The position numbers and the translations under genes were made by a program. The notes below the pieces were generated by a model that was not told the DNA's origin, made no database searches, and saw only the letters and a list, made by a program, of their open reading frames with translations. From Actinomycetes bacterium (GTDB lineage: Bacteria > Actinomycetota > Actinomycetes > Nanopelagicales > Nanopelagicaceae), in assembly GCA_025354785.1 (NCBI GenBank), contig JANXME010000326.1, positions 1,506 through 65,505 of the forward strand: DNA of 64,000 bases, written 5' to 3'. Within the stretch, counting starts at the first letter, position 1. The number at the start of each line of letters is the position of its first letter. This document shows, in pieces, positions 1,746 through 62,677 of this stretch.

Positions 1746-2506
1746 TTTTCCTCAATATCTTTGAGCGCTTCAAGCCACTCACGTTCACGACGCCATTTTT
1801 CGGTTTTGTCCGTGCTGTCGTGTTGAATTTTTGGGCCACCATAAGACATTACTTTTGCTAATTTCTCGGCATAACGGGCTCCCATAGCCTGCTCGTGAAC
1901 GTGAGCAACCTGTTGTCTGGACGTCATGTCACGTACTACTGCATATAGATAGCTTATTTTCTTTTGTTCATCGTTAACAATGCCGTTAGCTGCATCTTTG
2001 ATAACCTGAAAATTAAATTCATCAGTGCCCAATTCGGCCATCTTATTTATTTCGGCAGCTGTGAAATCAGTCGTTACAAAGAAGGTGGTCAACCAATCGT
2101 AAAGCTGCATCGTTTTTTCGTTGGTTAAAGATCCAACGCGCAAAGGCTTCAATGGGATACTATGTTCAGATACCCAATTACTGTCCTCAAGATTCTTCAA
2201 GAGCATCACATTTAGTAGATTATCAATCTTATTTGGCTTGTAAGCCTTGTTGACAATCGTCATATATGTCTTCAAATCAAAATAGTGACAAGCTTCTTCG
2301 AATTTTATAGGCTGATATTCAGCAGCAAAATCTCGAATACATACTAGACTTGGATTTGATACTTTATATATCTGTGATGCCCTACTGGTGCCCCATGTGA
2401 TCATATCCTCAAGCAGCTTACGGGCATCCTTAGACATGGGCTTGTTGAACGACACTATGTCGGGAGCATTCAACAGCAAAGCACGTAAATTGGGGTCAAA
2501 TATCAT
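1742..2506 (-). CDS. hypothetical protein
   Basis: 254-aa co-directional ORF; ATGA overlap with upstream gene and TTGA overlap with primase start; no motif recognised. Confidence 0.6.
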   Translation of the reverse strand: MIFDPNLRALLLNAPDIVSFNKPMSKDARKLLEDMITWGTSRASQIYKVSNPSLVCIRDFAAEYQPIKFEEACHYFDLKTYMTIVNKAYKPNKIDNLLNVMLLKNLEDSNWVSEHSIPLKPLRVGSLTNEKTMQLYDWLTTFFVTTDFTAAEINKMAELGTDEFNFQVIKDAANGIVNDEQKKISYLYAVVRDMTSRQQVAHVHEQAMGARYAEKLAKVMSYGGPKIQHDSTDKTEKWRREREWLEALKDIEEN

Positions 2507-2811
2507 TCATTAAACATCGCTTTCAAGAACTCAAGCAAAGTCAACCCACCATTTTCAGACTTTCTCCATAGCAAACAAGCAGACTGAATATGGTCTGGCA
2601 GACCGAAGGGTCCGCTTATGGCACCCCCCATATAGACATATGTCCAGTGGTCATTAGCGGTGATCGCTCCCTCAATATGAATCCATGTCAGATCGGCAAA
2701 TACTGCTTGACAATAAGTCATATTGTTATACTTAAATATTGCATAGTGGCTTGAATCCACAAAATCTTTTAATTCTTCAAACACAAACGTTGATTCTTCA
2801 AACATAGACAT
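2503..2811 (-). CDS. hypothetical protein
   Basis: 102-aa ORF packed between neighbours with 1-4 nt overlaps; no motif recognised. Confidence 0.55.
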   Translation of the reverse strand: MSMFEESTFVFEELKDFVDSSHYAIFKYNNMTYCQAVFADLTWIHIEGAITANDHWTYVYMGGAISGPFGLPDHIQSACLLWRKSENGGLTLLEFLKAMFNE

Positions 2812-22719: not shown

Positions 22720-23301
22720 TCACCTGGATATGTGTCCCATACGATTCTTGAGACGAGGGGCCTTATGTCTAACCTTTCTCTTAACATTTTCTTCTTCGTC
22801 TATTTCCTCATATTCTACTTTATGTTTACCAAAAACTCGACGATTTTTGGGTACGCTCGCATTGGATTTTTGCGGGCGCATTGATAATATATATTGCTTA
22901 AGTGTTAGATCCGCAAATCCGCCGGTATTTCGATACATCTTAAATGCGGCATGCACCCAATCTGGCAGCCACACGAGTGTGTCCGATATTCTACACAGAT
23001 CTCTGGCGCCACGCAAACTATCAATTAACATATCTATATCTGTGTCGCTAAGCATCGACGGAACAAAGCCTTCAGCATATAATTTGAGCGCTGACATTTG
23101 CCCCAATAACACATTCTTGTGGCGCCAATCAACATATTCATTTATATGACATGGGTCGTTAAATATCGCAATAGCTTCGTTGAGCATGCCTGTGGCAACG
23201 CGAACCAGCAAGTTGACACATCGCCCAGCTGGATTGTCGGCAGTGTCAATTTTTTGCAGACATTCGAGGGCTTCTCGGAGGGCTCTTAATTGGTCGTTCA
23301 C
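22720..23301 (-). CDS. hypothetical protein
   Basis: 193-aa ORF with basic C-terminus. Confidence 0.55.
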   Translation of the reverse strand: MNDQLRALREALECLQKIDTADNPAGRCVNLLVRVATGMLNEAIAIFNDPCHINEYVDWRHKNVLLGQMSALKLYAEGFVPSMLSDTDIDMLIDSLRGARDLCRISDTLVWLPDWVHAAFKMYRNTGGFADLTLKQYILSMRPQKSNASVPKNRRVFGKHKVEYEEIDEEENVKRKVRHKAPRLKNRMGHISR

Positions 23302-27937: not shown

Positions 27938-28240
27938 TCAAGTTTTAGCATTACTGTCACGCTTGCCACATGCCTTACAGGTAGTAAATAAAGATCCGCT
28001 TGGAGTTGTTATGGCACGTATGTTGGTACTATCGCAAAACTTACACTTGGGCAAATCATTAGGTAAGGTGTATTCTGACGAAACATCTTCATACTTTACT
28101 ATCTCTGGCTTATTTGCCTCTTTTCTAAGCCTAGCTACCTGTTTGCGCAAGAGTTTGATCTCTGATTTTAGCTCTTGGACCTCTTGATTCTTTCGTTCTT
28201 CTCGTGTTGGTTTATGTTGTGTGCGCTTAGGCTGCCTCAT
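27938..28240 (-). CDS. coiled-coil plus zinc-ribbon protein
   Basis: Basic/heptad N-terminus, CKFC..CKAC ribbon; 4-nt overlap upstream. Confidence 0.5.
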   Translation of the reverse strand: MRQPKRTQHKPTREERKNQEVQELKSEIKLLRKQVARLRKEANKPEIVKYEDVSSEYTLPNDLPKCKFCDSTNIRAITTPSGSLFTTCKACGKRDSNAKT

Positions 28241-29421
28241 CGAGTTCTACGTTCCGGCATCTCGCAGAAGATAACCTGGGCGCCCTGAGGTGGTTTGGTG
28301 TGGATTTCGCGGGCGAAAGCACCAACGATTAGCTGTCTGGCAGGGATGGGTGAGGGCCACGCTGCGAAAAATTCGCAGTCAGTGAAATGAATGCACGCAT
28401 CGAACTTACCTTTCTTGCTTGCTTGCCTGCACGCCACGTACGCTGGCTCGGGGTCAGTCCCACCAGAGAACGAAACAGCTTCATTCAGCTTCCACTGCTC
28501 ATTCTCAGACAACCAACCAGACCACACCAATTCGCTGGTGTGAACCGCCAAAAACACCTTCACGCCACTGAATGAATGCATCAGATTGACCGTTTCGGCG
28601 ACAATCTGGTTAATCCATTCACGGTCCATCGACCCAGATGCATCGATAATTACGCTAAGGCTCGGCTGATGTCCCTTCCATCCAGGCAACTGCACACCTT
28701 CTTCCGGGGACCGGCGATTACGCTTTGAAAAAGTCTGATAGTCGCGGGTCGGCTTTGATGCTGTAACTTCGAAACCGTGACGGATAATCTTCTTCCAGTC
28801 GATGCGGGCTGCACGTGGAGATAGCAATGCTGCGACCGCTGAGCTACCTTTCCCAGCCGCTTGGGCGTGGGCTCGCGCCTCAATAGCAACTTGTTTCCAA
28901 TCTGGAGCGCCCTCGGTGTTGTCGTCAATAACGCCACAGCCTGCTGCGGCATCCCCCTGCCCACTATCCTTTGATTGCTGTGGCATATTCTTCGGATTTT
29001 TCTTTAAAAATTCGAAGATCGCCTCTGCGAATATGTCTCCATGATACTCATGGGGTGGATATAGCGCATCCTTTGGCAATTTAATATCATCGAGCTTCAG
29101 AGCATGATTGATCGCCATGTCGGTTGCCACATTCCACATCCAAGCATCACGCCCACCACGCCGACCATGATGAAGCAAAATTAGATGCAACATCTCGTGC
29201 GCCAGAACTCCCTGGAGCTCCTCCTTTGTGAGCTTGTTCACAAATTCGGGGTTCAACAAGATTCGACCAGCGGCAGTGATACCCATCGTACCAACACCCT
29301 GCTCTTTATTTGAGATTTGATACAATTCGCGAATACGTTGGTGGATTAGCAAGAAATGTGGTTGAGTAAAACCAAGCACGTAGACAGCATTCCTACATTT
29401 CTCGATTGCGTCGTGGCTCAT
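28237..29421 (-). CDS. putative metallopeptidase (HExxH) fused to vWA-like domain; MoxR partner type
   Basis: VLAHEMLHLILLHH; C-terminal MIDAS-like VIIDASGSM; lies just downstream of the AAA+ ATPase. Confidence 0.65.
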   Translation of the reverse strand: MSHDAIEKCRNAVYVLGFTQPHFLLIHQRIRELYQISNKEQGVGTMGITAAGRILLNPEFVNKLTKEELQGVLAHEMLHLILLHHGRRGGRDAWMWNVATDMAINHALKLDDIKLPKDALYPPHEYHGDIFAEAIFEFLKKNPKNMPQQSKDSGQGDAAAGCGVIDDNTEGAPDWKQVAIEARAHAQAAGKGSSAVAALLSPRAARIDWKKIIRHGFEVTASKPTRDYQTFSKRNRRSPEEGVQLPGWKGHQPSLSVIIDASGSMDREWINQIVAETVNLMHSFSGVKVFLAVHTSELVWSGWLSENEQWKLNEAVSFSGGTDPEPAYVACRQASKKGKFDACIHFTDCEFFAAWPSPIPARQLIVGAFAREIHTKPPQGAQVIFCEMPERRTR

Positions 29422-29477: not shown

Positions 29478-29672
29478 TTAATTTTTGTTGTGATTCGCCC
29501 AATAAATCCATGCTCTAGGGAATAAATTAAAAATCATTCTACTGAATAGACTAAACCAGTGGTTGCGCCACGCCCCTATCCGGCAGCGTGGACACAACCG
29601 GTCCAATTCATTGTGCTGGGAACAAACAGAATAGAAGTCCCGGCGCCACCATAAATGACCCTTATAAAGCAT
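29478..29672 (-). CDS. hypothetical small protein
   Basis: 64 aa, Trp/Arg-rich with CPRC; start overlaps ATPase stop by 1 nt. Confidence 0.35.
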   Translation of the reverse strand: MLYKGHLWWRRDFYSVCSQHNELDRLCPRCRIGAWRNHWFSLFSRMIFNLFPRAWIYWANHNKN

Positions 29673-30841
29673 TACTGACCGCGAATAGCCTGTCCGATAG
29701 AACGAAGAAGACGGCCTTGCGCGAGAGTGCCTTCCTTGTGGAAAGGAGAGGAAGTGAACTTCTGCATTCCGAAACGACCCATCACATTCATTGCCGCTAC
29801 GCGGGTTTCATTCTGCAAACGGTCAGAATAGATCCATGCGGGGCAGGGGTCGGTCTGTGAAACTTGGGCAAGAATGCCAAGCACCGCGATTGCGGAATTC
29901 ACATCGGTGGGCAATTTAGCGGAGGCCGGGTTCTTCAAAATCTCCTTGATGCTCGGAAGGCTGTGGCGAACTTTACGAATGGTCATATACGATGCCGCCG
30001 CATCTTCACCCACATTGCCAGCCAGCACAGCGGCAAAAACAGACCCGCTATCCTGTTCACCAGCATCAAGCGCTTGGGCAATGACACGAATGCCACGCTC
30101 CCATGACCGTGGAGCGCCCCAAGCCTTACCCGACGACGATGCGCCCGGCGGTGGGTCAATGCACAACAAATCCGGAGCCATCTCAATAGTGGCGGCGAAG
30201 TCCGTGGCGATAGTCTGTGCAGTGGTCATCTCCTTAACCAGCCGCTCCTTCTCGCCATTAACTTCAACAAACTTGGCATCGAGGTTGTAAAAATACTCTT
30301 GGACCTCTTTGTTCGCCGGGCGCATATTGATTTGCGTCATACGACCGAGAAGAGGAAGTGAAAGTTCCCATCCGCCAGACGCCTGCTCTGGTGGGTTGGC
30401 TGCCGCCACGATGCGCGTTCCGGGGTGCAGCTTGACATCACCAGCCCAACGCTCATACACCAGCCGCAACGCTGCGCCCTGAACAGCCGGGGAGGCGCAG
30501 GTAAGCTCGTCTAGGAACAGCAGTACGGGCTCTTGCGTCGCGCGCTTAATACAGCCGAGCGGCAGCCGGTTGATGCTGCCGAGCTTATTTTCCGCATTGC
30601 CGCCAGTTGACACCGGGAAACCACCGATATCAGTAGGATCGCAAAGTGAAAGGATAAGCGGCTCAAACGGCAACTTGAGCTCCGCCGCAACAATGGCGAC
30701 GATAGCCGACTTGCCAATTCCAGGCGGACCAATCAAATTGATCGGCTGGTTGGCCAGGATGGAATGCCGCAAAGCCCGAATGCATTCTGCCAGATTCAAC
30801 ACATCAATTCCACTCGTCTTATCTGAAGTAATTTTACTCAT
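29672..30841 (-). CDS. MoxR/CbbQ/CobS-like AAA+ ATPase
   Basis: Walker A GPPGIGKSAIV, Walker B LLFLDELT; GAGGAAAG SD before ATG 30841 (track start 30883 less likely). Confidence 0.75.
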   Translation of the reverse strand: MSKITSDKTSGIDVLNLAECIRALRHSILANQPINLIGPPGIGKSAIVAIVAAELKLPFEPLILSLCDPTDIGGFPVSTGGNAENKLGSINRLPLGCIKRATQEPVLLFLDELTCASPAVQGAALRLVYERWAGDVKLHPGTRIVAAANPPEQASGGWELSLPLLGRMTQINMRPANKEVQEYFYNLDAKFVEVNGEKERLVKEMTTAQTIATDFAATIEMAPDLLCIDPPPGASSSGKAWGAPRSWERGIRVIAQALDAGEQDSGSVFAAVLAGNVGEDAAASYMTIRKVRHSLPSIKEILKNPASAKLPTDVNSAIAVLGILAQVSQTDPCPAWIYSDRLQNETRVAAMNVMGRFGMQKFTSSPFHKEGTLAQGRLLRSIGQAIRGQ

Positions 30842-30905
30842 CTTTCCTCTTCTGCGTTGTGTGTGAACTGCAATAAACTGCAATAATTATGCCAGTGCAA
30901 CATCG

Positions 30906-30915: not shown

Positions 30916-30955
30916 CAGATGCGATCCTGACTACAACTTATATAAAAAATATTAT

Positions 30956-31028
30956 TGAGAATGACAGGAGTTGAACCCGCGTCTACTAAGTCGATACTTT
31001 AGTCGCTCTACCGTTGAGCTACATTCCC
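30956..31028 (-). tRNA. tRNA-like gene with 9-nt anticodon loop (isotype undetermined)
   Basis: GGGAATG TA GCTC AACGGTA GAGC G ACTAA AGTATCGAC TTAGT AGAC GCGGG TTCAACT CCTGT CATTCTC A. Acceptor, D and T arms fold normally; the loop does not fit a 7-nt U33 pattern. Confidence 0.5.
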
Positions 31029-31063
31029 ATTTATTGCCTAATTAAGACCTTTTGACGTGTCAC

Positions 31064-31423
31064 TCACGGCTTCAGATTTGTTAGGAAATCGGTCATCGAC
31101 AACCCGTCGATTTGCATTGAATAGTACATGTTTACGCCCTCATAAAGCCAATTTGGGGCATATAGTGCTATCATATGTCCATTTATGATATCAACGCGAA
31201 ATTCTTCGAATGGTAGTCCATGGGTGGTCTTAAGCAGGTCAGTCAATTCTGTTGTAACATCAACCCGCTTTAACTTATTACGCTCAATATTAGCCAGATG
31301 CTTGTTTAAGCAACATTCATACGTGTGATTAATAATGGCGTTCGCATACACAGTCAATATACGTTCGCCACAATCATCACAAGTTTTAGCCAACTGTGCA
31401 TTCTTACCAACTGGTTTGGTCAT
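31064..31423 (-). CDS. C2HC zinc-finger / C-terminal-helix paralogue family member
   Basis: CDDCGERILTVYANAIINHTYEC, then ..NWLYEGVNMYY..GLSMTDFLTNLKP. ATG 31423 forms an ATGA overlap with the upstream stop. Confidence 0.55.
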   Translation of the reverse strand: MTKPVGKNAQLAKTCDDCGERILTVYANAIINHTYECCLNKHLANIERNKLKRVDVTTELTDLLKTTHGLPFEEFRVDIINGHMIALYAPNWLYEGVNMYYSMQIDGLSMTDFLTNLKP

Positions 31424-31647
31424 CTTATACCCGTACCATCGAGAAATTCTTGTAAAGAGATTGCTCCAGCACAACTTGCGACCCATATGCGACAAGCGGC
31501 ATTTAAATCTTCATCCAACACGTAGGCGAATTTGTTATTAGTATAAGCCGATCTCGCCAATATCACGTAGTCATTCGAAAGGCCAAACATAAACGTCCTA
31601 AATTCATATCCAGCATAAATTGCTGCGCAATGTGACAAGAGGTACAT
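31420..31647 (-). CDS. hypothetical protein
   Basis: 75-aa ORF, ATGA-coupled to the downstream family member. Confidence 0.45.
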   Translation of the reverse strand: MYLLSHCAAIYAGYEFRTFMFGLSNDYVILARSAYTNNKFAYVLDEDLNAACRIWVASCAGAISLQEFLDGTGIR

Positions 31648-31651
31648 GGCA

Positions 31652-32506
31652 TTATTGGGTTGATTCTGGTTTCATTGCACAAAGAAATTCTGCAAGTGTC
31701 ATGCCAGCATATTCCGGCCCAGATTTATTATAAGATTTGATTGCTTCAACCACCCACGGTGGTGTCCACATGCGCCAGAATGTACTACACATTTCATGTG
31801 TAATGTCAGCAGAACGTATCGCGAGCAATTCAGTCATGTTTTCAATCTGAACATATCCTTTATCACTCATCTTTTGTTGATCTGCTTGTATCCTACATTC
31901 GGGATGCAGCTTGTGCATGGCCATGTCTTCGACTGGCCTGATGCTCTGGCATACATCACATTCTGCTCCATCTATTAAATTAACCTGATATATAACACCT
32001 TGATTGTGCAGAGATGGTTTAGACATAAATGGCGGCACGAGTCCTTCTAATAAATATATTTGTTGATCAACTATTGGCCTGCCAGCTAAAATTTCTACGA
32101 ATGCGGCGGTGTCGCTTGCTTGCATCGAGGCCAATTGACGCAACGCATTTTCACCTCTTTCAACACTATTATGTGATTCTATTGATTCAGTGCCTAGGAT
32201 TGAACACCATTTCGGCCAGTGTGTTTTATTGAGCGCCAGTTCATCTCGGTAGTTATCGAAGTAGTTAGTAGAGTTAACATCTACTTTATCAAATCTGACC
32301 CATAATGTGTCTATATACTTAATTGCATTTTGTAACAGCAATAGTAATTGATCCCGTTCGATGCGTGCATAACGATACTGGTTACGGTAAGGCTTAGCCT
32401 TGAACATGTTGCTACAAAAATATCCAACCTTATTTTGGTTTGATTGCATGTCTGTCATCTGCCATCTTGCTAATAAAGTCTGCAAGACACATGTCGCCAA
32501 ATCCAT
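31652..32506 (-). CDS. C2HC zinc-finger / C-terminal-helix paralogue family member (long form)
   Basis: CDVCQSIRPVEDMAMHKLHPEC, then WTPPWVVEAIKSYNKSGPEYAGMTLAEFLCAMKP. Start may be ATG 32449. Confidence 0.6.
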   Translation of the reverse strand: MDLATCVLQTLLARWQMTDMQSNQNKVGYFCSNMFKAKPYRNQYRYARIERDQLLLLLQNAIKYIDTLWVRFDKVDVNSTNYFDNYRDELALNKTHWPKWCSILGTESIESHNSVERGENALRQLASMQASDTAAFVEILAGRPIVDQQIYLLEGLVPPFMSKPSLHNQGVIYQVNLIDGAECDVCQSIRPVEDMAMHKLHPECRIQADQQKMSDKGYVQIENMTELLAIRSADITHEMCSTFWRMWTPPWVVEAIKSYNKSGPEYAGMTLAEFLCAMKPESTQ

Positions 32507-32801
32507 TATTTTTGATGTAAAGCCGGATTGCGTCTGCTCCCCAAGATTCTACAAACAAATCCGCTGGTATGCCATTTACACGAATCGGCTTTGATGCCAA
32601 CTTAGGATAGATATTTGCTAAATTGCCGGCTACATAGTCAAATGTGTATTTTGATTCGGAAAGCATGCCGTATACGCTAACCATATTATATTTTGGCGCT
32701 TCGATATTTCTGAATCTCATCCAACTACATACCTGTGATGCATGGTCAGGCGCTGACGACGAAATTTTGGTCATACATTTCGGACAGATATTATCAGTCA
32801 T
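32430..32801 (-). CDS. C2HC zinc-finger / C-terminal-helix paralogue family member (short form)
   Basis: CPKCMTKISSSAPDHASQVC, then ESWGADAIRLYIKNNGFGDMCLADFISKM. Confidence 0.55.
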   Translation of the reverse strand: MTDNICPKCMTKISSSAPDHASQVCSWMRFRNIEAPKYNMVSVYGMLSESKYTFDYVAGNLANIYPKLASKPIRVNGIPADLFVESWGADAIRLYIKNNGFGDMCLADFISKMADDRHAIKPK

Positions 32802-33597
32802 CTTTTGTGCCCATGCTTGTTAAATAGTCGGCAAGTGACATGTCTAGAAACATGCCCCGACTTTGCATCGCATTAAATGTTTTAATCACTTTATCCACCC
32901 AATCTGGAACAAACATGGCATAGCCAATTGGAAGAAATTCAAATGGAATATTTTTAGCCCTTATGATTTGAGTTTCTTCAGCAATACTAACATTGTAAAT
33001 ATTTTGTTTGCTGATCAATTGCATGCGCATAGTTTCCATACATGCAATTGATTTCATGTGATCTTCTACCGCCTCTGTCACCACATTGCACAAGCATTTT
33101 GGACAAACGATTGGTTTTAATAGCGTATGTTTAGTAACATATCCGTCAAAATCAATCTGATGCTCAACTAGATAAACAGTTTTCCCATGTACTTGTTGAG
33201 CCGTTGCATCATTAATTCCATTTAGTAGAATGGAAGATGATTCACTGTTATGCGTGCGAATTGTCTCAATCGCAGACAATGACAAATTTGAAATGTGCTG
33301 ATCAAATGGTGCCTGATATATAGACATCCCATGATTATCATTTTCCAGACGTTCGATCATATATGGGCAGTGTGGCATACTTAAACTATTTTCAGCGCGC
33401 GCAGCTTCCAATCTGTCTTTAAGTCTTAGTAGATACACATCTGTCGACTGAATTAGTTTAATGAAGCCATTAGTATCATACGCACGGGCATTTATGTGGC
33501 CGAGTGAAATAACGCGCTGTACCAATATGTTTGATTCTATATTAGGTTTGAGTCCCATCGGTCTGGTCGGTCTGGTCGATTGCAATGCTCTCACCAT
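32794..33597 (-). CDS. C2HC zinc-finger / C-terminal-helix paralogue family member (long form)
   Basis: CPKCLCNVVTEAVEDHMKSIAC, then FVPDWVDKVIKTFNAMQSRGMFLDMSLADYLTSM. Confidence 0.6.
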   Translation of the reverse strand: MVRALQSTRPTRPMGLKPNIESNILVQRVISLGHINARAYDTNGFIKLIQSTDVYLLRLKDRLEAARAENSLSMPHCPYMIERLENDNHGMSIYQAPFDQHISNLSLSAIETIRTHNSESSSILLNGINDATAQQVHGKTVYLVEHQIDFDGYVTKHTLLKPIVCPKCLCNVVTEAVEDHMKSIACMETMRMQLISKQNIYNVSIAEETQIIRAKNIPFEFLPIGYAMFVPDWVDKVIKTFNAMQSRGMFLDMSLADYLTSMGTKDD

Positions 33598-34282
33598 TAA
33601 TTGCTCTGAGGAATTCGTGTAGTTTTAAACCGGCAAATTCTGATGATTTACGATAATCTTGGATGGCTTTATCAACCCAAGCTGGCACCCACATGTCTAG
33701 TGCTTGTGGACGAATTTTGAATTCAATGCCCGATTTACGAATAGCATTAGTTGCAGCCGGGTCATCTACAATGACATATCCGGCCTGTTGAACATCGCGT
33801 ATCTGGGTATCACGCAAGCATCTAAGCGACCCCATGTGGGAATTCATGCCACTCTTGGTGTATTGTTTATGACATTGAGGGCATTCACTCGCCTTAATTA
33901 TGGTAGCTAAATAATATCGATAGAATGTTGGAGTGGAGGTGGCAACGTCCCATACGAAACTAATCTTGGGCATCTTGTCGCCCTTTTTGACCGCATCTAA
34001 CACCAATCTAGAACACTTGATAGTGTGGTCTAGATCCTGCATGTCGGCGAGCATGTTGTATTTGTATACGGATATGTTCACGTCAACTATACTATATCCA
34101 ACACTAATCGTGGTGTAATGCCACACACCACCACGATTAGTTATGCTTTCTAAGTTGATGGCCCGGAATTGCTCTAATGCTACAACAATCCCCTCGACAC
34201 GCTTGATAATATCCTGGATATCAAATTTGCATATTGTGTTTTGTGTCTGCACCGCATATTCGTCCAAAATATAACCCCTCAA
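33542..34282 (-). CDS. C2HC zinc-finger / C-terminal-helix paralogue family member (long form)
   Basis: CPQCHKQYTKSGMNSHMGSLRC, then WVPAWVDKAIQDYRKSSEFAGLKLHEFLRAI. TTG start in a TTGA overlap. Confidence 0.6.
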   Translation of the reverse strand: MRGYILDEYAVQTQNTICKFDIQDIIKRVEGIVVALEQFRAINLESITNRGGVWHYTTISVGYSIVDVNISVYKYNMLADMQDLDHTIKCSRLVLDAVKKGDKMPKISFVWDVATSTPTFYRYYLATIIKASECPQCHKQYTKSGMNSHMGSLRCLRDTQIRDVQQAGYVIVDDPAATNAIRKSGIEFKIRPQALDMWVPAWVDKAIQDYRKSSEFAGLKLHEFLRAINGESIAIDQTDQTDGTQT

Positions 34283-34479
34283 TAGTCAGAGCAGTCTGGG
34301 CACGCGGTCCGCGTGCCATTGCTGGCAGCAACGACTCCTGTGTCATTACACGTTTTGCAAAGGGCGTGCCAACTTTTATCATCCATAGGCCCAGCACTCA
34401 TCCGCATCTTGGCATGCAAAGCAACGATGTTACGGCGCCTTGGCTGTTTTATCGTTATCGGCTTGATTGGTTTTTTCAT
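34279..34479 (-). CDS. small Cys-rich protein (CxxCxxxG-type)
   Basis: CKTCNDTG..CPDC; start uncertain (may be 34407). Confidence 0.4.
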   Translation of the reverse strand: MKKPIKPITIKQPRRRNIVALHAKMRMSAGPMDDKSWHALCKTCNDTGVVAASNGTRTACPDCSDY

Positions 34480-34588
34480 GACATTCGCACATATGATAAT
34501 GCAAATTAGTAGATAATTCGCATCCTAGAGTTTTATCACCAATGCAAGCAAAATAGCCTTTGTCTTCACAAGCTTTACAATTAAACAT
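34430..34588 (-). CDS. small Cys-rich protein (below ORF-track cutoff)
   Basis: Hand-translated 52 aa MFNCKACEDKGYFACIGDKTLGCELSTNLHYHMCECHEK..; GGTGA SD before ATG 34588. Confidence 0.3.
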   Translation of the reverse strand: MFNCKACEDKGYFACIGDKTLGCELSTNLHYHMCECHEKTNQADNDKTAKAP

Positions 34589-34673
34589 CAATCACCAGTT
34601 TGGGGTTAAATGGTACATCAACATCTTCATGGACACGATATTACTAGTGTGTCCATGGACTTAAATATCTAAT

Positions 34674-35231
34674 ATGTCCACCACATATAATAGTAGAAGA
34701 TCCCTGAATAAATGTGTTAAATGTTCTAAACAATTAAATGACATTACTCAAGCTAGATGCCAGACATGCCGTAATTTTGAGCAAGAAAATACAAAATCTT
34801 ATCAGTCAAAGCGTATTCTTGCACATTTATGCCGGAGTTGTTGCAAGTCCAACAATAATGGGAAAGTTCATTGTGATATTTGCGGTTTTAAAGCAAGAGT
34901 CCGTGCCCGTAAGCGCGCCATAGAATTAAAAATTATGATATTAAATGCATATGGTGGACCACAGTGCGCTTGTAGAGGGTGCAGTTGGCATAATCAACGC
35001 TGTGTCTGTAGTCACATAGACGTCTTAACTATAGACCATATCGACAATAGTGGCGCCAAACATAGGAGAGAGATGACTGGCGGAGATCGCGTCGGTGGCG
35101 GCGATACCACCTATCGATGGCTTAAGAAGAATAATTACCCATCTGGATATCAAGTTCTATGCTGGAATTGTAATTGGATCAAATATAAACATTTAGTCTC
35201 TCCACAAAATCTGGATTCTCATTTTCATTAG
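34674..35231 (+). CDS. HNH endonuclease, family A (free-standing, opposite strand)
   Basis: N-terminal Zn ribbons, LNAYGG, TIDHIDNSGAKHRRE, LCWNCNW. 53-nt convergent overlap with the phosphoesterase gene. Confidence 0.8.
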   Translation: MSTTYNSRRSLNKCVKCSKQLNDITQARCQTCRNFEQENTKSYQSKRILAHLCRSCCKSNNNGKVHCDICGFKARVRARKRAIELKIMILNAYGGPQCACRGCSWHNQRCVCSHIDVLTIDHIDNSGAKHRREMTGGDRVGGGDTTYRWLKKNNYPSGYQVLCWNCNWIKYKHLVSPQNLDSHFH

Positions 35232-38060: not shown

Positions 38061-38459
38061 CTACGTATCACGTGGCACCATGGAAACAAGAAATTCTGCA
38101 AATGTCATGCCAGCATATCCTTCTTTTAGGGCATAGTACACACGCACAGCGTCGATTATATCTTCAGATACAAAAACTTCAAAGAAACTCCCGCCTATAC
38201 CCGACATCTTAAAGGTTTTTGCAGAATATCCTAGTGAGATTAACGTTTCATTAACCTCACTAAGTTTATCCATTTCACTATTATGCCTCATGTAGCCAGG
38301 ATGACCAAAACTTATGCCCACATCATTATATGTAAGACTACAGAGTTTTAGCATTGGCGCTTCTTGTGATTTAAATCGCAGATATTCGCAGATATCTTCA
38401 TGCATGTGCCCCCATACACCAGTTACTATCTGGTGGCCGCAAACGCTACACTGATTCAT
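38061..38459 (-). CDS. C2HC zinc-finger / C-terminal-helix paralogue family member (short form)
   Basis: CSVCGHQIVTGVWGHMHEDIC, then IIDAVRVYYALKEGYAGMTFAEFLVSM. Confidence 0.55.
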   Translation of the reverse strand: MNQCSVCGHQIVTGVWGHMHEDICEYLRFKSQEAPMLKLCSLTYNDVGISFGHPGYMRHNSEMDKLSEVNETLISLGYSAKTFKMSGIGGSFFEVFVSEDIIDAVRVYYALKEGYAGMTFAEFLVSMVPRDT

Positions 38460-38920: not shown

Positions 38921-39088
38921 TTAAAACATGGCGTTGAGATATGCTTGAAGACTCATTGAATCAGAAAAGGTCTTGGCCCAGATTTCACACTTCATTCTAA
39001 TGGCGTCGAGATCGTCTTGCGCCAATTTTGGATGATGTTTATTCGTATATCCTATGAGGATTCTGGGCGATCCGAATAAGTGTATATC
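38921..39088 (-). CDS. possible short member of the paralogue family (helix module only)
   Basis: Hand-translated about 55 aa from GTG: ..HHPKLAQDDLDAIRMKCEIWAKTFSDSMSLQAYLNAMF. Ends 2 nt before the next ATG. Below ORF-track cutoff. Confidence 0.3.
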   Translation of the reverse strand, partial: DIHLFGSPRILIGYTNKHHPKLAQDDLDAIRMKCEIWAKTFSDSMSLQAYLNAMF

Positions 39089-39140
39089 CACATAAATTTC
39101 TAAGCACCAAAGTGTGCGTCACAATGTTCTATAGAATAGC

Positions 39141-39896: not shown

Positions 39897-40085
39897 CTAA
39901 TATTCGCTAGATTGGCCACGCTTTTGCGGCTCTGGTGGCAGATTGACACCCAAGTCTTGTGCAATCAATAGAATTGACTGAACAATCCACTCCATACGCT
40001 CATTTGCATAATCGATTTGATTCTGTAAGTCTATCCTGTTTTGGCATTCATCACAGGTATAACTACAGTTACATTCGCAAGACAT
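39897..40085 (-). CDS. small Cys-rich protein
   Basis: MSCECNCSYTCDEC N-terminus; AAGGA SD. Confidence 0.45.
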   Translation of the reverse strand: MSCECNCSYTCDECQNRIDLQNQIDYANERMEWIVQSILLIAQDLGVNLPPEPQKRGQSSEY

Positions 40086-51144: not shown

Positions 51145-51672
51145 ATGAATACACTATGCATATATTGCAATAAACAACCGCCACGTATAGGCAAAAGTCA
51201 GTGTGCCGATTGCAGGGTGCAATTAACTAAGATGGAGCGCATTAGAGTAGCCCGTAGAAGAGTGGCTGGAGTGTGCATTAAATGCGGTGATAAAAGATAT
51301 CTCAATTTTGTTGAATGTGAATATTGCCATAATATAAATGCAGCTAGACGTCGCGTTGTACAGCACAACTTAAAATTGGAAACATTAAATGCATATGGTG
51401 GACTTAGATGTGCTTGTTCGAAATGTCCATATGCTATCGCAATTCCTGCCATTCAATTTGCCACACTTGACCATATAAACAATGATGGCGCCAAACACAG
51501 AAAAGAGGTTGGTGTTGGATCACATTCAGGTAAGACATTCTATAGATACTTGAAGCAGCAGGGATTTCCGTTTGGATTGCAAGTAATGTGTTTCAATTGC
51601 AACTCTGGACGTCAATTAAATGCTGGCATTTGTCCACATATGGGTGACGAATCACCCATAAATCTTCTTTAG
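51145..51672 (+). CDS. HNH endonuclease, family A (free-standing, opposite strand)
   Basis: LNAYGG, TLDHINNDGAKHRKE, MCFNCNS; paralogue of 34674..35231. Confidence 0.8.
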   Translation: MNTLCIYCNKQPPRIGKSQCADCRVQLTKMERIRVARRRVAGVCIKCGDKRYLNFVECEYCHNINAARRRVVQHNLKLETLNAYGGLRCACSKCPYAIAIPAIQFATLDHINNDGAKHRKEVGVGSHSGKTFYRYLKQQGFPFGLQVMCFNCNSGRQLNAGICPHMGDESPINLL

Positions 51673-57179: not shown

Positions 57180-57587
57180 TCAATATGACCGATCGTCGCG
57201 ATTATATTCAGCATCATCATCTTCATGCTGCTGTATCTCAGGTTTTACAACAATTGGGTCTGTGTCAAAAAATCTTACGCCCTCGCACCACACTCTTACA
57301 TAGCTATCTGAGCTAGTACCGCACGTGGTGCATCCTGAGTCAGTGTATTCTACGACACTGCGGAAGTTAATAAGTTTCGTGTCGGTAATCTTGGCGATTT
57401 CCTCTAAACGGTCATACTCGATTTCATATCCCCTCACCCAAAATTCTAAAGTCTTAGCAGTATGATTCTCGCTATATCGCTCAACATTTCCGAACTGTTG
57501 GCTGATTAACTGGTCAAATATGTTCTTAGACATAGTACCCCAGGCAGAGCGAATTAGAATTGCTAAACGACTTCTAATTGACAACAT
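57180..57587 (-). CDS. hypothetical protein
   Basis: 135-aa ORF with acidic C-terminus. Confidence 0.5.
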   Translation of the reverse strand: MLSIRSRLAILIRSAWGTMSKNIFDQLISQQFGNVERYSENHTAKTLEFWVRGYEIEYDRLEEIAKITDTKLINFRSVVEYTDSGCTTCGTSSDSYVRVWCEGVRFFDTDPIVVKPEIQQHEDDDAEYNRDDRSY

Positions 57588-57595
57588 TTCTCCAC

Positions 57596-58051
57596 ATGAC
57601 TATTTTTAATAAATGTACAGGCTGCCATCGCAAATTACCAGAACATGACTTCAGTTTTAAAAACAAGTCTACTGGCTATAGACAATCCAAGTGCAAGAAG
57701 TGTTATAGTAACATTTTGAAAGTCCATTATATGCTGAATAAAGAGGGTTATATTCATAAATATAAGTATCGAGCTAAACAAATCAAATCCAACATTGCTT
57801 CGATCAAATCGAGTAAACCATGTCTAGACTGCGGTGTCGCGTATCCATATTATGTTATGGATTTTGATCATCGACCGGGTGAACTTAAGACTGCTGACAT
57901 AAGTGTAATGATTAGAGCAAAAATGGCATATAATTCGATTTTGACTGAAATATCTAAATGTGACTTAGTATGTGCAAATTGCCATAGGGTACGCACATTT
58001 ATACGTTCTAAACGCCCCCTGAGGGCCTCGAACCCCCGACCTTCAGAGTAG
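57596..58051 (+). CDS. HNH endonuclease, family B; 3' end antisense to tRNA-Arg
   Basis: CTGC..KCKKC, PCLDCGVAYPYYVMDFDH, CDLVCANCHRVRT. The last 38 nt overlap the opposite-strand tRNA. ATG 57596 preferred over track TTG 57578. Confidence 0.8.
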   Translation: MTIFNKCTGCHRKLPEHDFSFKNKSTGYRQSKCKKCYSNILKVHYMLNKEGYIHKYKYRAKQIKSNIASIKSSKPCLDCGVAYPYYVMDFDHRPGELKTADISVMIRAKMAYNSILTEISKCDLVCANCHRVRTFIRSKRPLRASNPRPSE

Positions 58052-59016: not shown

Positions 59017-59400
59017 TTACTTTGAATGATCAAAAAGGGCCATGGGACGATTATAAGGCGCATGGTCGCGATTTTCTTGAGAGAGTTCATCACGCTTTTT
59101 AATGTATTCTCCCCAAGCGATAATCGCCTTGGCCTCGGCGCGCTGCCCTTCCCACGCCTGCTGAAACGCCTCGTTTACGCGATTCAGTTCAGCACGGGCG
59201 TGGGAGAATGTGACAACTGCCTCGTCAAGTTCCCTTGCTGCTTTACGATGTTCTATAGCCGCACCGCTGCTAAAACAAATCACTCCACCAAGAACTAGAG
59301 AGGTAGCCCACCCGGCATACCAAAACTTGGTACGGACCTGTAGGCGATCCAAAAGAAATTGGGACACGATCACCGGACGATCTTCTTTCTTTGTCATCAA
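59017..59400 (-). CDS. membrane-anchored protein
   Basis: 127 aa; TM WYAGWATSLVLGGVICFSSGAAI. Confidence 0.5.
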   Translation of the reverse strand: MMTKKEDRPVIVSQFLLDRLQVRTKFWYAGWATSLVLGGVICFSSGAAIEHRKAARELDEAVVTFSHARAELNRVNEAFQQAWEGQRAEAKAIIAWGEYIKKRDELSQENRDHAPYNRPMALFDHSK

Positions 59401-59624
59401 TTATCCTGTGGACGCATATTACTGAGGAATTCTTCCAGAGACAGCCCGGCAAACCCATCATTCTTACGATAAAGCTCGATAGCGTTCTTTACCCATCGTG
59501 GAACCCATGCTTGTCCTATCATTTTATCAGCCTTGAGTCCCTGACGAATCAATATGTCTCTCAGCATGGCATCCATGTTGATTTTCACATATCCACCGAT
59601 CGCCGGAGTTCGTTTGCGTTCCAT
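59397..59624 (-). CDS. short member of the paralogue family (C-terminal helix module only)
   Basis: WVPRWVKNAIELYRKNDGFAGLSLEEFLSNMRP. Confidence 0.5.
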   Translation of the reverse strand: MERKRTPAIGGYVKINMDAMLRDILIRQGLKADKMIGQAWVPRWVKNAIELYRKNDGFAGLSLEEFLSNMRPQDN

Positions 59625-61872: not shown

Positions 61873-62424
61873 TTACAACAACTGCTTCGCGAGTTCGTAT
61901 AAAACAATATTTCCCGCTTGTGAAGTATTCAAACAAAATCCAACTCCCGGCATTGGAATGCAAACAATCATGTCTGACACATGAAGGATTTCCTCTGGGA
62001 CGCCGGTAGTTTCGTGACCAAGCACCAACATAATCTCCTTGCCCCTCTCTACCCTTAGCTCCGACAATGGGATTGCTCGCTCATCTAACTCTAACGAAAT
62101 AAGTGGAATGTTTTTTGCTAGCGTATATTCGAGAAAAGAGCTTGGGTTGGAATGTTGCCTGATATTAATCAGGCGGTTAAGACCACCAGATAGACTAACC
62201 ATATCTCGATAGCTGGGTGCGGCGCCAATGATGTGCAGATCCATTGCTCCGAAACAAGCCATCGCACGGATGATAAACCCAATATTGCCATCACACCGAA
62301 AATTTATAGTAGCAACGGATATGGGGATGGTCTTGGCGCCAAGAGCCTTAGCCATATGTCGCTCAGCGCGAGTTTTTCTCTGGAGAAGAGGCGAGAATAC
62401 ATTCCCACTCTGTAAGACCTGCAT
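61873..62424 (-). CDS. SpoU/TrmH-family RNA 2'-O-methyltransferase
   Basis: NIGFIIRAMACFGA, MLVLGHETTGVPEEIL, CIPMPGVGFCLNTSQAGNIVLYE. GGAGG SD before ATG 62424 (alternatives 62439, 62355). Confidence 0.85.
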   Translation of the reverse strand: MQVLQSGNVFSPLLQRKTRAERHMAKALGAKTIPISVATINFRCDGNIGFIIRAMACFGAMDLHIIGAAPSYRDMVSLSGGLNRLINIRQHSNPSSFLEYTLAKNIPLISLELDERAIPLSELRVERGKEIMLVLGHETTGVPEEILHVSDMIVCIPMPGVGFCLNTSQAGNIVLYELAKQLL

Positions 62425-62677
62425 ATGAATTACCTCCATCAGCTAATTTACGGTACAATTGCTGCACCTCAATGACCCATGGCTCAACAAAAGCCATGTA
62501 ATAAGGTGGCCAATCAGGTTCTTTCGGCACCCACACCCTAATACCAGCCTCTCTGAGTGTTAGCACCTTGTCCATGCGCAAATAACCTAGCGTAACCATC
62601 CCCGGTGGACCTTGATGCAATTTTGCCTCCGATCTTGCGAAATCAGGATGCAGTGGATCGTGCAAAAATCGTGCCAT
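62363..62677 (-). CDS. member of the paralogue family (helix module, no zinc finger)
   Basis: FVEPWVIEVQQLYRKLADGGNSYAGLTEWE. MARFLHD start at 62677; the track start reads into tRNA-Lys. Confidence 0.45.
   Translation of the reverse strand: MARFLHDPLHPDFARSEAKLHQGPPGMVTLGYLRMDKVLTLREAGIRVWVPKEPDWPPYYMAFVEPWVIEVQQLYRKLADGGNSYAGLTEWECILASSPEKNSR

What the first reader, a model, noticed from the sequence alone, without database searches (positions are those of the whole stretch)
31064..34282. Expanded paralogue family: C2HC zinc finger plus conserved C-terminal helix motif (at least 9 copies)
Four tandem genes here carry a Cx2Cx9-14Hx4-6C finger. About 60-80 aa later comes a terminal module W(V/T)PxWVxxAIxxYxxxxx(F/Y)AG(L/M)xLxEFLxxM. 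Dispersed copies lie at 38061..38459, 38921..39088, 59397..59624 and 62363..62677. N-terminal regions differ completely and lengths range from 55 to 284 aa. Some copies keep only the helix module. Lineage-specific tandem expansion with variable heads and a constant tail is typical of host-interaction or counter-defence arsenals. I do not recognise the family.
Basis: seen in the sequence. Interest (0 to 1): 0.7.

Follow-up and report, generated by a model that had tools for sequence, protein, structure and literature searches.

The report
Expanded zinc-finger gene family in phage
An uncultivated phage carries at least ten copies of a previously undescribed protein family with a variable head, a small zinc finger and a constant tail; the family is real and conserved in related phages, but its function is not known.

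Summary
A profile built only from other phages finds eight window ORFs at E 1e-11 to 5e-33. Two more are marginal (62363, 2503). One is a probable remnant (31420). One claimed copy (38921) is not supported.

The shared unit is about 105 aa: a C2HC beta-beta-alpha zinc finger, a helix and a beta-alpha-beta-beta-alpha-alpha module. AlphaFold2 models it at pLDDT 88.

A scan of 1.84 billion proteins finds 265 clusters. Most are about 250 aa, with a highly diverse 125-175 aa head in front of this tail.

Nothing matches in Pfam, PHROGs, NCBIfam, PADLOC, PDB sequences, Foldseek PDB or BFVD, or cultured phage genomes. Motif scans of representative bacterial genomes found nothing. Every family-bearing contig examined for context belongs to one clade of uncultivated freshwater, groundwater and sediment phages.

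A six-slot tandem array sits between a metallophosphatase gene and MoxR-DUF2201 genes. Each slot has its own orthologue in three genomes. The expansion is therefore old and stable, not a recent burst, although these genes diverge faster than their neighbours.

My best guess, at modest confidence, is non-enzymatic adaptors: a constant docking tail with variable recognition heads. Function is untested.

The parts
33542..34282 (-). Array slot 1. A 246-aa ORF (database aa, from ATG 34267) with head, C2HC finger (CPQC...H...C) and tail module.
   Evidence: Independent HMM E 5e-33. AlphaFold2 model of the C-terminal unit has pLDDT 88. Orthologues are L010 8379-9257 (55%) and L025 3035-3793 (37%).
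32794..33597 (-). Array slot 2. A 267-aa ORF (likely start M14 at 33558) with head, C2HC finger and tail.
   Evidence: Independent HMM E 2e-24. The full-length AlphaFold2 model has pLDDT 85. Its head family has 13 representative clusters.
32430..32801 (-). Array slot 3. A short 123-aa member with the finger at the N-terminus, a longer linker and the tail.
   Evidence: Independent HMM E 1e-13. Orthologue P0006 is 65% identical.
31652..32506 (-). Array slot 4. A 284-aa ORF (database aa, from 32407) with head, C2HC finger and tail.
   Evidence: Independent HMM E 2e-30. Orthologues are L010 10308-11177 (53%) and L025 4890-5759 (31%).
31420..31647 (-). Array slot 5. A 75-aa probable degenerate remnant that keeps only the last two helices (…AGAISLQEFL…).
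   Evidence: The HMM does not detect it. hhalign aligns it in register with the tail at 62% probability, and L025 has an intact 128-aa member in this slot. Its orthologue in L010 is 43% identical.
31064..31423 (-). Array slot 6. A 119-aa member (the ORF extends to 31495) with a C-x2-C-x14-H-x3-C finger and a divergent tail.
   Evidence: Independent HMM E 8e-12 over the finger plus tail. The tail alone is not significant (E 0.15). Orthologues are P0005 (73%) and L025 6075-6488 (45%).
38061..38459 (-). Dispersed short member of 132 aa, with the finger at the N-terminus, a long linker and the tail.
   Evidence: Independent HMM E 3e-11. Orthologue L010 4710-5123 is 48% identical.
59397..59624 (-). 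Stand-alone 75-aa tail module with no finger and no head. This minimal form is conserved.
   Evidence: Leave-one-out E 6.5e-17 and independent HMM E 4e-16. Orthologues with the same neighbour gene occur in L001, L016, L019 and L023.
22720..23301 (-). It has no finger. The tail module lies at residues about 105-146 and is followed by a basic 45-aa extension.
   Evidence: Leave-one-out E 1e-10 and independent HMM E 5e-12. Orthologue at L025 13933-14508.
62363..62677 (-). Divergent module-only member. The true start may be Met at 62599, giving 78 aa beginning MVTLGYL….
   Evidence: Independent HMM E 1e-3. It is the best non-seed hit in nine of the ten leave-one-out runs, at E 4e-5 to 2e-2. A sigma-54-type motif lies at 62676-62662.
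2503..2811 (-). A 102-aa ORF whose last 35 aa resemble the final two helices of the tail (…GLTLLEFLKAMFNE).
   Evidence: Leave-one-out E 5e-4 and independent HMM E 7e-3.
38921..39091 (-). Membership is not supported.
   Evidence: Leave-one-out E 1.1 and no hit with the independent HMM. The relative genome has no ORF between the orthologues of its two neighbours.
34357..34371 (-). Sigma-54-type promoter consensus (TGGCACGCCCTTTGCA), about 75-90 nt upstream of the first array gene. It is a candidate promoter of the array.
   Evidence: It is an exact match to TGGCAC-N5-TTGC. All nine exact matches in the window are on the coding strand. With up to one mismatch there are 23 matches, against 5.4±2.3 in shuffles. 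The same motif sits at the equivalent place in the relative genome (L010 8411).

Best explanation
This is a multigene family of small, non-enzymatic two-domain proteins that, so far as I could trace it, belongs to one clade of uncultivated phages.

The constant C-terminal unit is about 105 aa. It contains a zinc-stabilised beta-beta-alpha C2HC knuckle packed against a beta-alpha-beta-beta-alpha-alpha module. I propose that this unit is a docking or assembly domain recognising one common partner. That partner could be a phage or host protein machine, or another family member.

The 125-175 aa N-terminal alpha/beta heads have diversified into many sequence types, and I propose that they supply different binding specificities. 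Each paralogue would then tether a different target to the same partner. The headless 75-aa module proteins would act as a base subunit or as competitors.

The genes lie in the replication and nucleotide-metabolism (non-structural) part of the genome. They form a translationally coupled array behind a sigma-54-type promoter, so they probably act inside the infected cell and are not virion parts.

Shown here: the family, its architecture, the predicted fold, its distribution, the synteny and the relative divergence rates. Inferred: the docking role, the specificity role of the heads, and action in host takeover or regulation.
For: - The family and its architecture are statistically solid.
- The tail is a confidently predicted compact domain, pLDDT 88 and pTM 0.69.
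- The tail also exists as an autonomous, conserved 75-80 aa gene.
- Conserved tail columns are the four zinc ligands plus mostly hydrophobic or structural residues: G-Y-V, P, W-V-P-x-W-V-x-x-A-I-x-x-Y and G-[YF]-A-G-M-x-L-x-E-[FY]-L-x-K-M. There is no catalytic-looking polar constellation.
- Tails are on average electrically neutral, with net charge about 0 and median pI 7.0. This fits protein docking better than non-specific nucleic-acid binding.
- Heads fall into 64 BLAST clusters among 122 representatives yet keep a constant length. Some clusters are linked by hhalign at 85-92% probability.
- Heads diverge faster than tails in two of three orthologue trios.
- Family genes diverge faster than flanking enzymes.
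- No head or tail hits any enzyme family in Pfam across 78 members.
- The genomic neighbourhood is non-structural.
- Adjacent array ORFs overlap or abut.
- A conserved sigma-54-type motif precedes the array.
Against: - No partner has been identified and nothing here tests binding.
- The array is old, with strict positional orthology. That fits fixed, distinct housekeeping roles as well as it fits an arms-race arsenal.
- In one long paralogue (32794) head and tail diverge equally.
- A zinc finger followed by helices is also a classic nucleic-acid-binding layout.
- The three head types in the window are not detectably related to each other: hhalign gives at most 35%. A common ancestral head is therefore unproven.
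- The host is unknown, so expression timing is unknown.
Confidence: 0.4

Rival explanations
1. They are sequence-specific nucleic-acid-binding regulators. The finger plus the C-terminal helices would bind DNA or RNA. The variable heads would act as oligomerisation, sensing or effector domains. The result would be a set of phage transcription or translation factors, in the manner of a LuxR-like or I-TevI-like layout with the binding module at the C-terminus.
For: - The beta-beta-alpha C2HC finger superposes on classical small fingers at rmsd 1.4-3 Å over 26-40 residues. The matches include U1-type, C2H2 and BED-like hits in PDB and BFVD.
- The module has an RRM/ferredoxin-like beta-alpha-beta-beta-alpha order.
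- A few basic columns are conserved: position 51 is R/K in 62% of sequences and position 96 is K/R in 75%.
- The genes sit among replication, tRNA and RNA-repair genes.
- The stable positional orthology fits fixed regulatory roles.
Against: - Tails carry about zero net charge on average, and several are acidic, with pI 5.0-5.3 in the window copies.
- The best-conserved residues are hydrophobic and probably buried.
- There is no significant match to any DNA- or RNA-binding family by sequence or fold.
- I found no repeated operator-like motif associated with the genes.
Confidence: 0.25
2. The paralogues are subunits of one hetero-oligomeric complex. The constant tails would be the assembly interface and each array slot would contribute a distinct subunit. 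The adjacent MoxR AAA+ ATPase and DUF2201 VWA/metallopeptidase-like protein may assemble or remodel the complex.
For: - One-to-one positional orthology of six slots is kept in three genomes.
- Adjacent array ORFs overlap or abut, so a single operon is plausible.
- A family gene or the array lies directly upstream of MoxR-DUF2201 in the window, L010, L025, L013/L021 and L016.
- A stand-alone tail module is conserved.
- Paralogue tails show no concerted evolution.
Against: - All these genomes belong to one clade with generally conserved gene order, so the synteny may carry no functional meaning.
- Slot 5 has decayed in two genomes.
- Copy number and positions differ in more distant relatives. 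The 98-kb phage has two extra copies elsewhere.
- Several members are dispersed far from the array.
Confidence: 0.2
3. They are mobile selfish genes of the homing-endonuclease type, with a C-terminal zinc-finger DNA-binding module, which would explain the many dispersed copies.
For: - I-TevI-like endonucleases are about 245 aa, with an N-terminal catalytic domain, a zinc finger and C-terminal helices (from my own knowledge).
- The window does carry true HNH-like paralogues on the opposite strand.
- Weak BFVD hits to HNH or NUMOD proteins appear, at probability 0.15 or less.
Against: - No nuclease motif or Pfam nuclease hit is found in any of 78 members or in the window copies.
- The genes are syntenic orthologues at 31-73% identity across genomes, not sporadically present.
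- They are co-oriented and translationally coupled with their neighbours.
Confidence: 0.03
4. The similarity is a chance or ORF-calling artefact.
For: Two of the listed pieces (38921 and the tail of 31064 taken alone) are not individually significant.
Against: - Independent-profile E-values reach 5e-33.
- There are 265 homologous clusters in other genomes.
- Orthologues are conserved.
- The fold predictions are confident.
Confidence: 0.01

Closest known systems
UBZ4 / RAD18-type C2HC zinc fingers (RAD18, WRNIP1; eukaryotic ubiquitin-binding fingers)
   Same: - The ligand order and spacing match (C-x2-C-x10-14-H-x3-5-C).
- The predicted beta-beta-alpha knuckle matches. Foldseek local superposition on the WRNIP1 UBZ gives rmsd 1.4-1.7 Å over 23-29 residues (probability 0.60-0.93), and on the RAD18 UBZ 3.4 Å over 35 residues.
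- The RAD18 UBZ is the best PDB sequence hit, at E 0.12.
   Different: - The similarity is confined to about 25-30 residues and is not statistically significant (Foldseek E above 0.9; HMM E 0.12).
- The helix Asp that UBZ fingers use to bind ubiquitin (from my own knowledge) has no conserved counterpart. Columns 20-23 are variable K/S/L/K.
- Here the finger is fused to a 75-aa module with no counterpart in UBZ proteins.
- The context is a phage.
Lineage-specific multigene families of large phages, with variable and constant regions, generally assumed to be host-takeover or accessory genes
   Same: - There are many paralogues per genome, both in tandem arrays and dispersed.
- They are small, lie in non-structural regions and have no database annotation.
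- They evolve faster than core genes.
   Different: - No sequence or fold relationship to any described phage family was found in PHROGs, BFVD or INPHARED.
- The array is unusually stable, with positional orthologues.
I-TevI-type modular homing endonucleases (catalytic head, linker, zinc finger, C-terminal helices)
   Same: The overall length is similar (about 250 aa). The order is also similar: a variable or functional head, then a zinc finger, then a helical C-terminal module.
   Different: - There is no GIY-YIG or HNH catalytic domain.
- The finger is C2HC, not C4.
- The genes are syntenic and vertically inherited.
MoxR AAA+ / VWA partner systems (MoxR-VWA chaperone pairs; DUF2201 VWA-metallopeptidase proteins)
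   Same: A family gene or array lies immediately upstream of a MoxR-like ATPase and a DUF2201 protein in five related genomes.
   Different: - The family proteins have neither an AAA+ nor a VWA domain.
- The link is positional only, within a clade whose gene order is conserved anyway.
- Most dispersed copies are not near MoxR.

Membership tests
UBZ4 (RAD18-type) zinc finger | C2HC ligand set with C-x2-C-x(about 11)-H-x(3-5)-C spacing | tested here: met
   All six finger-bearing window copies have it. So do 134 of 144 representatives. C, C, H and C are conserved at 99-100% in the family alignment.
UBZ4 (RAD18-type) zinc finger | Significant sequence or profile similarity to known UBZ4 fingers | tested here: not met
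   The best PDB sequence hit is the RAD18 UBZ at E 0.12. Pfam zinc-finger hits are all below their cut-offs.
UBZ4 (RAD18-type) zinc finger | Beta-beta-alpha fold | tested here: met
   The AlphaFold2 model has strands at residues 4-6 and 13-15 and a helix at 16-23. It superposes locally on the WRNIP1 UBZ at 1.4-1.7 Å. This rests on a prediction only.
UBZ4 (RAD18-type) zinc finger | Conserved acidic residue on the helix that contacts ubiquitin (from my own knowledge of the family) | tested here: not met
   Columns 20-23, between the His and the last Cys, show no conserved Asp or Glu.
Homing endonuclease (GIY-YIG or HNH with a C-terminal DNA-binding module) | A recognisable nuclease catalytic domain | tested here: not met
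   No Pfam hit in the window copies or in 78 diverse members.
Homing endonuclease (GIY-YIG or HNH with a C-terminal DNA-binding module) | Sporadic, mobile distribution among related genomes | tested here: not met
   Positional orthologues are present in three genomes.
Known anti-defence or defence families (PADLOC models) | Profile match | tested here: not met
   The only hit is one sub-threshold match, E 0.003 at 15 bits, to a candidate family.
Any Pfam, PHROG or NCBIfam family | Profile match above the curated threshold | tested here: not met
MoxR-VWA partner or substrate | Physical or functional interaction with the adjacent MoxR and DUF2201 proteins | not testable with these tools
   Only conserved adjacency is shown.

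The most novel reading that the evidence does not exclude
The constant tail is a docking domain for the adjacent phage MoxR AAA+ / VWA (DUF2201) machine. The conserved Glu of the terminal L-x-E-[FY]-L helix might serve as the ligand for the VWA metal site. The six-slot array would then encode interchangeable substrate adaptors, letting one ATP-driven remodeller act on many different host targets during takeover. That would be a phage-encoded, adaptor-programmed protein-remodelling system with no described precedent.
Probability: 0.08. Interest if true: 0.85.

Novelty: new variant of a known kind. Interest (0 to 1): 0.5.

Why it matters
If the reading is right, about 8% of this window's coding capacity goes to one family that no database describes. 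That family's tail domain has no detectable structural relative.

The layout is a constant, confidently folding tail, a stand-alone tail gene and a panel of diversified heads. This offers a tractable way into how a widespread clade of uncultivated freshwater and groundwater phages manipulates its host.

The tail could serve as bait to find the common partner. The heads could serve as a natural library of binders.

The conserved adjacency to a MoxR-VWA pair, together with the sigma-54-type promoters, gives concrete hypotheses that can be tested.

Tried and rejected
1. Megablast and tblastn against 50,697 phage records found nothing, using the array DNA, an 868-aa neighbour, a tail unit and a distant member. 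The phage's RecA-like protein is only about 30% identical to anything cultured.

2. The word-indexed protein search with the family alignment returned only seven proteins from this phage and one relative. This gave a false impression of extreme rarity. The exhaustive HMMER scan found 265 clusters.

3. The top hits of that scan (P0008, P0009, P0144) are long proteins made of tandem 'DMTVEEYLKSMKP' repeats, seemingly eukaryotic. They match only the last helix many times over, so I rejected them as repeat artefacts.

   - A strict W-V-P-x-W-V-x-x-A-I-x-x-Y DNA pattern found nothing in IMG/VR.
   - A gapped pattern found one 98-kb IMG/VR contig, no GTDB genomes and ten metagenome loci.
   - The single GTDB hit from a peptide-pattern scan was a chance match.

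5. Foldseek with the tail model (PDB and BFVD) and with the full-length model (PDB) gave no hit at E 0.001 or better. Weak hits to YbjN, longin and LuxR-type proteins have probability 0.1 or less, and I disregarded them.

6. A head-only profile search found only family members, so the heads are not borrowed from other proteins at this sensitivity.

7. The sigma-70 promoter and terminator scan of the array was no better than shuffled sequence.

8. Two literature searches found nothing relevant.

9. I considered Ogr/Delta-type and Ros/MucR-type prokaryotic zinc fingers from memory and set them aside. Ogr/Delta uses four Cys, Ros/MucR uses C2H2, and their topologies differ. Neither was formally tested.


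Full report
**1. What the window is**

Nearly all long ORFs lie on the minus strand, and eight tRNA genes are scattered among them. The recognisable genes are non-structural:
- ribonucleotide reductase and a DEAD/ResIII helicase;
- ATP-dependent DNA ligase and two RNA-ligase-like proteins;
- a SpoU methylase and a RecA/UvsX-like recombinase;
- a MoxR-like AAA+ ATPase next to a DUF2201 (metallopeptidase plus VWA-like) protein, and a 724-aa protein.

Neither DNA nor protein searches find a near relative among 50,697 deposited phage genomes. The RecA-like protein is only about 30% identical to anything there. Identical or related contigs come from metagenome assemblies and one NCBI metagenome-assembled genome. 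The window is therefore part of an uncultivated phage.

**2. Checking the observation**

Within 31064-34282 there are five finger-bearing genes, not four: 33542-34282, 32794-33597, 32430-32801, 31652-32506 and 31064-31423/31495. A 75-aa ORF (31420-31647) lies between the last two. A sixth finger copy is at 38061-38459. The finger reads C-x2-C-x10-14-H-x3-5-C.

Leave-one-out profiles of the 35-40 aa tail recover seven copies at E 6e-6 to 6e-17 and 2503 at 5e-4. They do not recover 31064 (0.15) or 38921 (1.1).

A profile built only from 141 homologues found in other phages gives:
- E 1e-11 to 5e-33 for eight ORFs, including 31064 once finger and tail are scored together;
- 1e-3 for 62363 and 7e-3 for 2503;
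- nothing for 38921 or 31420.

The count is therefore eight solid copies and two probable ones. 31420 is a probable remnant, and 38921 is unsupported. One further 260-aa copy lies just past the window end. Together the supported copies take up about 4.9 kb, roughly 8% of the window.

**3. The real extent of the shared unit**

Pairwise alignments run from the finger to the C-terminus, about 105-110 aa, not just over the terminal helix. The stand-alone 75-aa protein (59397) aligns from a 'G-Y-V' strand onward.

AlphaFold2 on the unit of 33542, using 13 sequences, gives pLDDT 88 and pTM 0.69. The predicted order is two short strands and a helix (the finger), a long helix, then strand-helix-strand-strand-helix-helix.

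The conserved columns are:
- the four zinc ligands (99-100%);
- G-[YLW]-V;
- A-I-[RK]-x-A-G-[IV]-P;
- a Pro;
- [WY]-[VA]-P-x-W-V-x-x-A-I-x-x-Y;
- G-[YF]-A-G-[ML]-[TS]-L-x-E-[FY]-L-x-K-M-x-P.

These are mostly hydrophobic or structural. Nothing resembles a catalytic set. Tails are on average uncharged, with median pI 7.0.

**4. The wider family**

The word-indexed search found only seven proteins. The exhaustive HMMER scan of 1.84 billion representatives found 265 clusters at E 1e-3 or better and 127 at 1e-10 or better. Three top hits are tandem-repeat proteins that match only the last helix, and I rejected them as spurious.

Among the best 144 real hits:
- 134 carry the C2HC finger;
- 117 end within five residues of the tail;
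- most are 225-300 aa, with a 125-175 aa region in front.

The ancestral form is therefore a protein of about 250 aa. The short window copies are reduced forms.

The heads split into 64 BLAST clusters among 122 sequences. A few clusters are linked by hhalign at 85-92% probability. The three head types in the window are not linked to each other; the best pair reaches 35%.

The head family of 32794 aligns across 13 clusters. Its full-length model is confident, at pLDDT 85, and shows an alpha/beta head of two long helices on a sheet.

None of ten family proteins looked up carries an informative name. Nine have none and one is labelled only 'hypothetical protein'.

**5. Comparison with what is known**

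No member reaches a curated threshold or a significant E-value in any of the following:
- Pfam, for the window copies and for 78 diverse members;
- PHROGs, PADLOC and NCBIfam;
- PDB by sequence;
- Foldseek against PDB with either model, or against BFVD with the tail model.

The only consistent resemblance is local. The finger superposes on the WRNIP1 UBZ finger at 1.4-1.7 Å over 23-29 residues and on the RAD18 UBZ at 3.4 Å over 35 residues, and the RAD18 UBZ is the best PDB sequence hit at E 0.12. That makes it a UBZ4-like beta-beta-alpha C2HC knuckle in shape. The similarity is not significant, and the ubiquitin-contacting acidic residue that I recall for that family is not conserved here. 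I do not file it as a UBZ.

tblastn against cultured phages finds nothing. DNA-pattern scans find one IMG/VR contig of 98 kb, no representative bacterial or archaeal genome, and ten metagenome loci from groundwater, sediment and similar samples. One peptide-pattern hit in a bacterial genome was a chance match. A head-only profile finds only family members.

**6. Genomic behaviour**

Every contig I could inspect belongs to the same phage clade. They share MoxR, DUF2201, the ligase, the 724-aa protein and others at 50-93% identity. They also carry several copies each, often in tandem runs of two or three.

In three genomes the same six-slot array lies between a metallophosphatase gene and the MoxR-DUF2201 pair:
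- the window;
- a relative in GCA_040384425.1 (loci L010 and L001);
- a 102.5-kb contig (L025).

Each slot holds the orthologue of the same paralogue, head included. Family orthologues are 43-73% identical to the nearer relative and 31-45% to the farther one. MoxR is 92% and 79% identical, and other enzymes 61-93%.

Heads diverge faster than tails for 33542 (39 against 70%, and 18 against 63%) and for 31652 (51 against 61%, and 26 against 42%). They do not for 32794.

Tails of different paralogues in one genome are only about 25-32% identical. There is therefore no concerted evolution, and the duplications are old.

Slot 5 is an intact 128-aa member in L025 but a 75-aa remnant in the window and its nearer relative.

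In more distant relatives a family gene again sits directly upstream of MoxR (L013/L021 and L016). Extra copies occur at other places.

**7. Regulation**

The sigma-70 and terminator scan was uninformative.

A repeat search turned up TGGCACG-N4-TTGCA, the sigma-54 promoter consensus. There are nine exact TGGCAC-N5-TTGC sites, all on the coding strand. With up to one mismatch there are 23 sites, against 5.4±2.3 in shuffles.

One site (34371-34357) lies 75-90 nt upstream of the first array gene. The equivalent site is present in the relative (L010 8411), and such motifs fall only on the coding strand in every related locus that has them. Another lies just upstream of the 62363 copy.

This suggests the array is a transcription unit with a sigma-54-type promoter. 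That is a consensus match only, not evidence of function.

**8. Interpretation**

Shown:
- a real, large family matching nothing in the libraries searched and, in every contig examined for context, carried by one uncultivated phage clade;
- a variable head, a C2HC finger and a constant tail;
- a confidently predicted but unmatched tail fold;
- an autonomous tail-only gene;
- many copies per genome;
- an old, syntenic array;
- faster divergence than neighbouring genes.

Inferred. Conservation is structural and not catalytic. The tail is neutral and can stand alone. The heads diversify while keeping their length. The most economical model is therefore a set of adaptors: the tail docks on a common partner or on other family members, and the heads supply specificity. 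They would act inside the infected cell. I put this at about 0.4.

Rivals:
- A nucleic-acid-binding regulator family is the main rival, at about 0.25. The layout of a finger plus helices favours it. The charge and conservation pattern count against it.
- A hetero-oligomeric complex, possibly serviced by the adjacent MoxR-VWA pair, fits the strict positional orthology (about 0.2).
- Homing-endonuclease-like mobility and artefact are effectively excluded.

The architecture and divergence fit it, but the expansion is ancient and stable, and no result ties it to defence.

**9. Novelty and score**

The family and its tail domain are undescribed in every library available here. The kind of thing is familiar: a lineage-specific multigene family of small zinc-finger accessory proteins in a large phage. 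I rate it a new variant of a known kind, with interest 0.5.

It is solid and tractable, with a clear experimental handle, but has no demonstrated function. The most novel reading still open is that the array encodes adaptors for the neighbouring MoxR-VWA machine (probability about 0.08).

Noticed in passing
window 3326, 5772, 15962, 20509, 27470, 34357, 40994, 45248 and 62662 (all minus strand); also L010 1826, 8411, 15900 and 18687; L013 5559, 7541 and 10978; L012 5408: The sigma-54-type promoter consensus TGGCACG-N4-TTGCA recurs only on the coding strand. There are nine exact sites, and 23 with up to one mismatch against 5.4±2.3 expected. It is conserved at equivalent positions in related phages. 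No sigma-54 activator (bEBP) domain was seen in the proteins scanned. Heavy use of sigma-54-type promoters by a phage would be unusual and deserves its own study.
   Followed up: partly
window 29672-30883 and 28237-29421 (minus strand): A MoxR-like AAA+ ATPase (AAA_5/bpMoxR) and a DUF2201 protein (metallopeptidase-like N-domain plus VWA-like domain) form a highly conserved pair, 79-92% identical between genomes. They lie immediately downstream of the family array in five related genomes.
   Followed up: partly
window 34674-35231, 51145-51672 and 57578-58051 (plus strand): Three Cys-rich paralogous ORFs lie on the opposite strand to almost everything else, and two of them share DNA-level repeats (34926-35072 and 51370-51507). 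They look like HNH-type homing endonuclease insertions. The first sits just upstream of the array and is absent at that place in the relative genome.
   Followed up: no
window 31692-31706 and 38098-38112 (minus strand): The codons for the conserved A-G-M-T-L/F-A-E-F motif in two copies spell TGGCATGACAYTTGCA, one mismatch from the sigma-54 consensus. The surrounding 40 nt are 88% identical between the two genes (31673-31712 and 38079-38118). This may be coincidence, gene conversion, or internal promoters for the genes downstream.
   Followed up: no
window 34279-34479, 34430-34591 and 39897-40085 (minus strand): Several very small Cys-rich ORFs (53-66 aa, with CxxC pairs) are conserved in the relative at 45-77% identity. 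Besides the family studied here, the phage encodes many mini zinc-ribbon-like proteins.
   Followed up: no
window 30955-31029 (minus strand): ARAGORN calls a tRNA-Asp with anticodon ATC, which is unusual; GTC is the normal Asp anticodon. It lies between the array and MoxR. The window also carries a Thg1-like protein, two RNA-ligase-like proteins and a SpoU methylase, and the related contig carries a PTH2 domain. Together these suggest an extensive tRNA repair or modification toolkit.
   Followed up: no
window 44896-47502 (minus strand): An 868-aa protein with a C-terminal GDSL lipase/acylhydrolase domain and internal imperfect 43-nt repeats (45543-46308). It may be a tail fibre or depolymerase-like protein, the only structural-looking gene noticed in the window.
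   Followed up: no
P0008, P0009 and P0144 (database proteins, not in the window): Long proteins, seemingly eukaryotic, with 15-27 tandem 'DMTVEEYLKSMKPDEP' repeats score highly against the tail profile (E down to 3e-35) purely through repetition of a helix-like motif. This is a caution for anyone building a profile of this family.
   Followed up: yes
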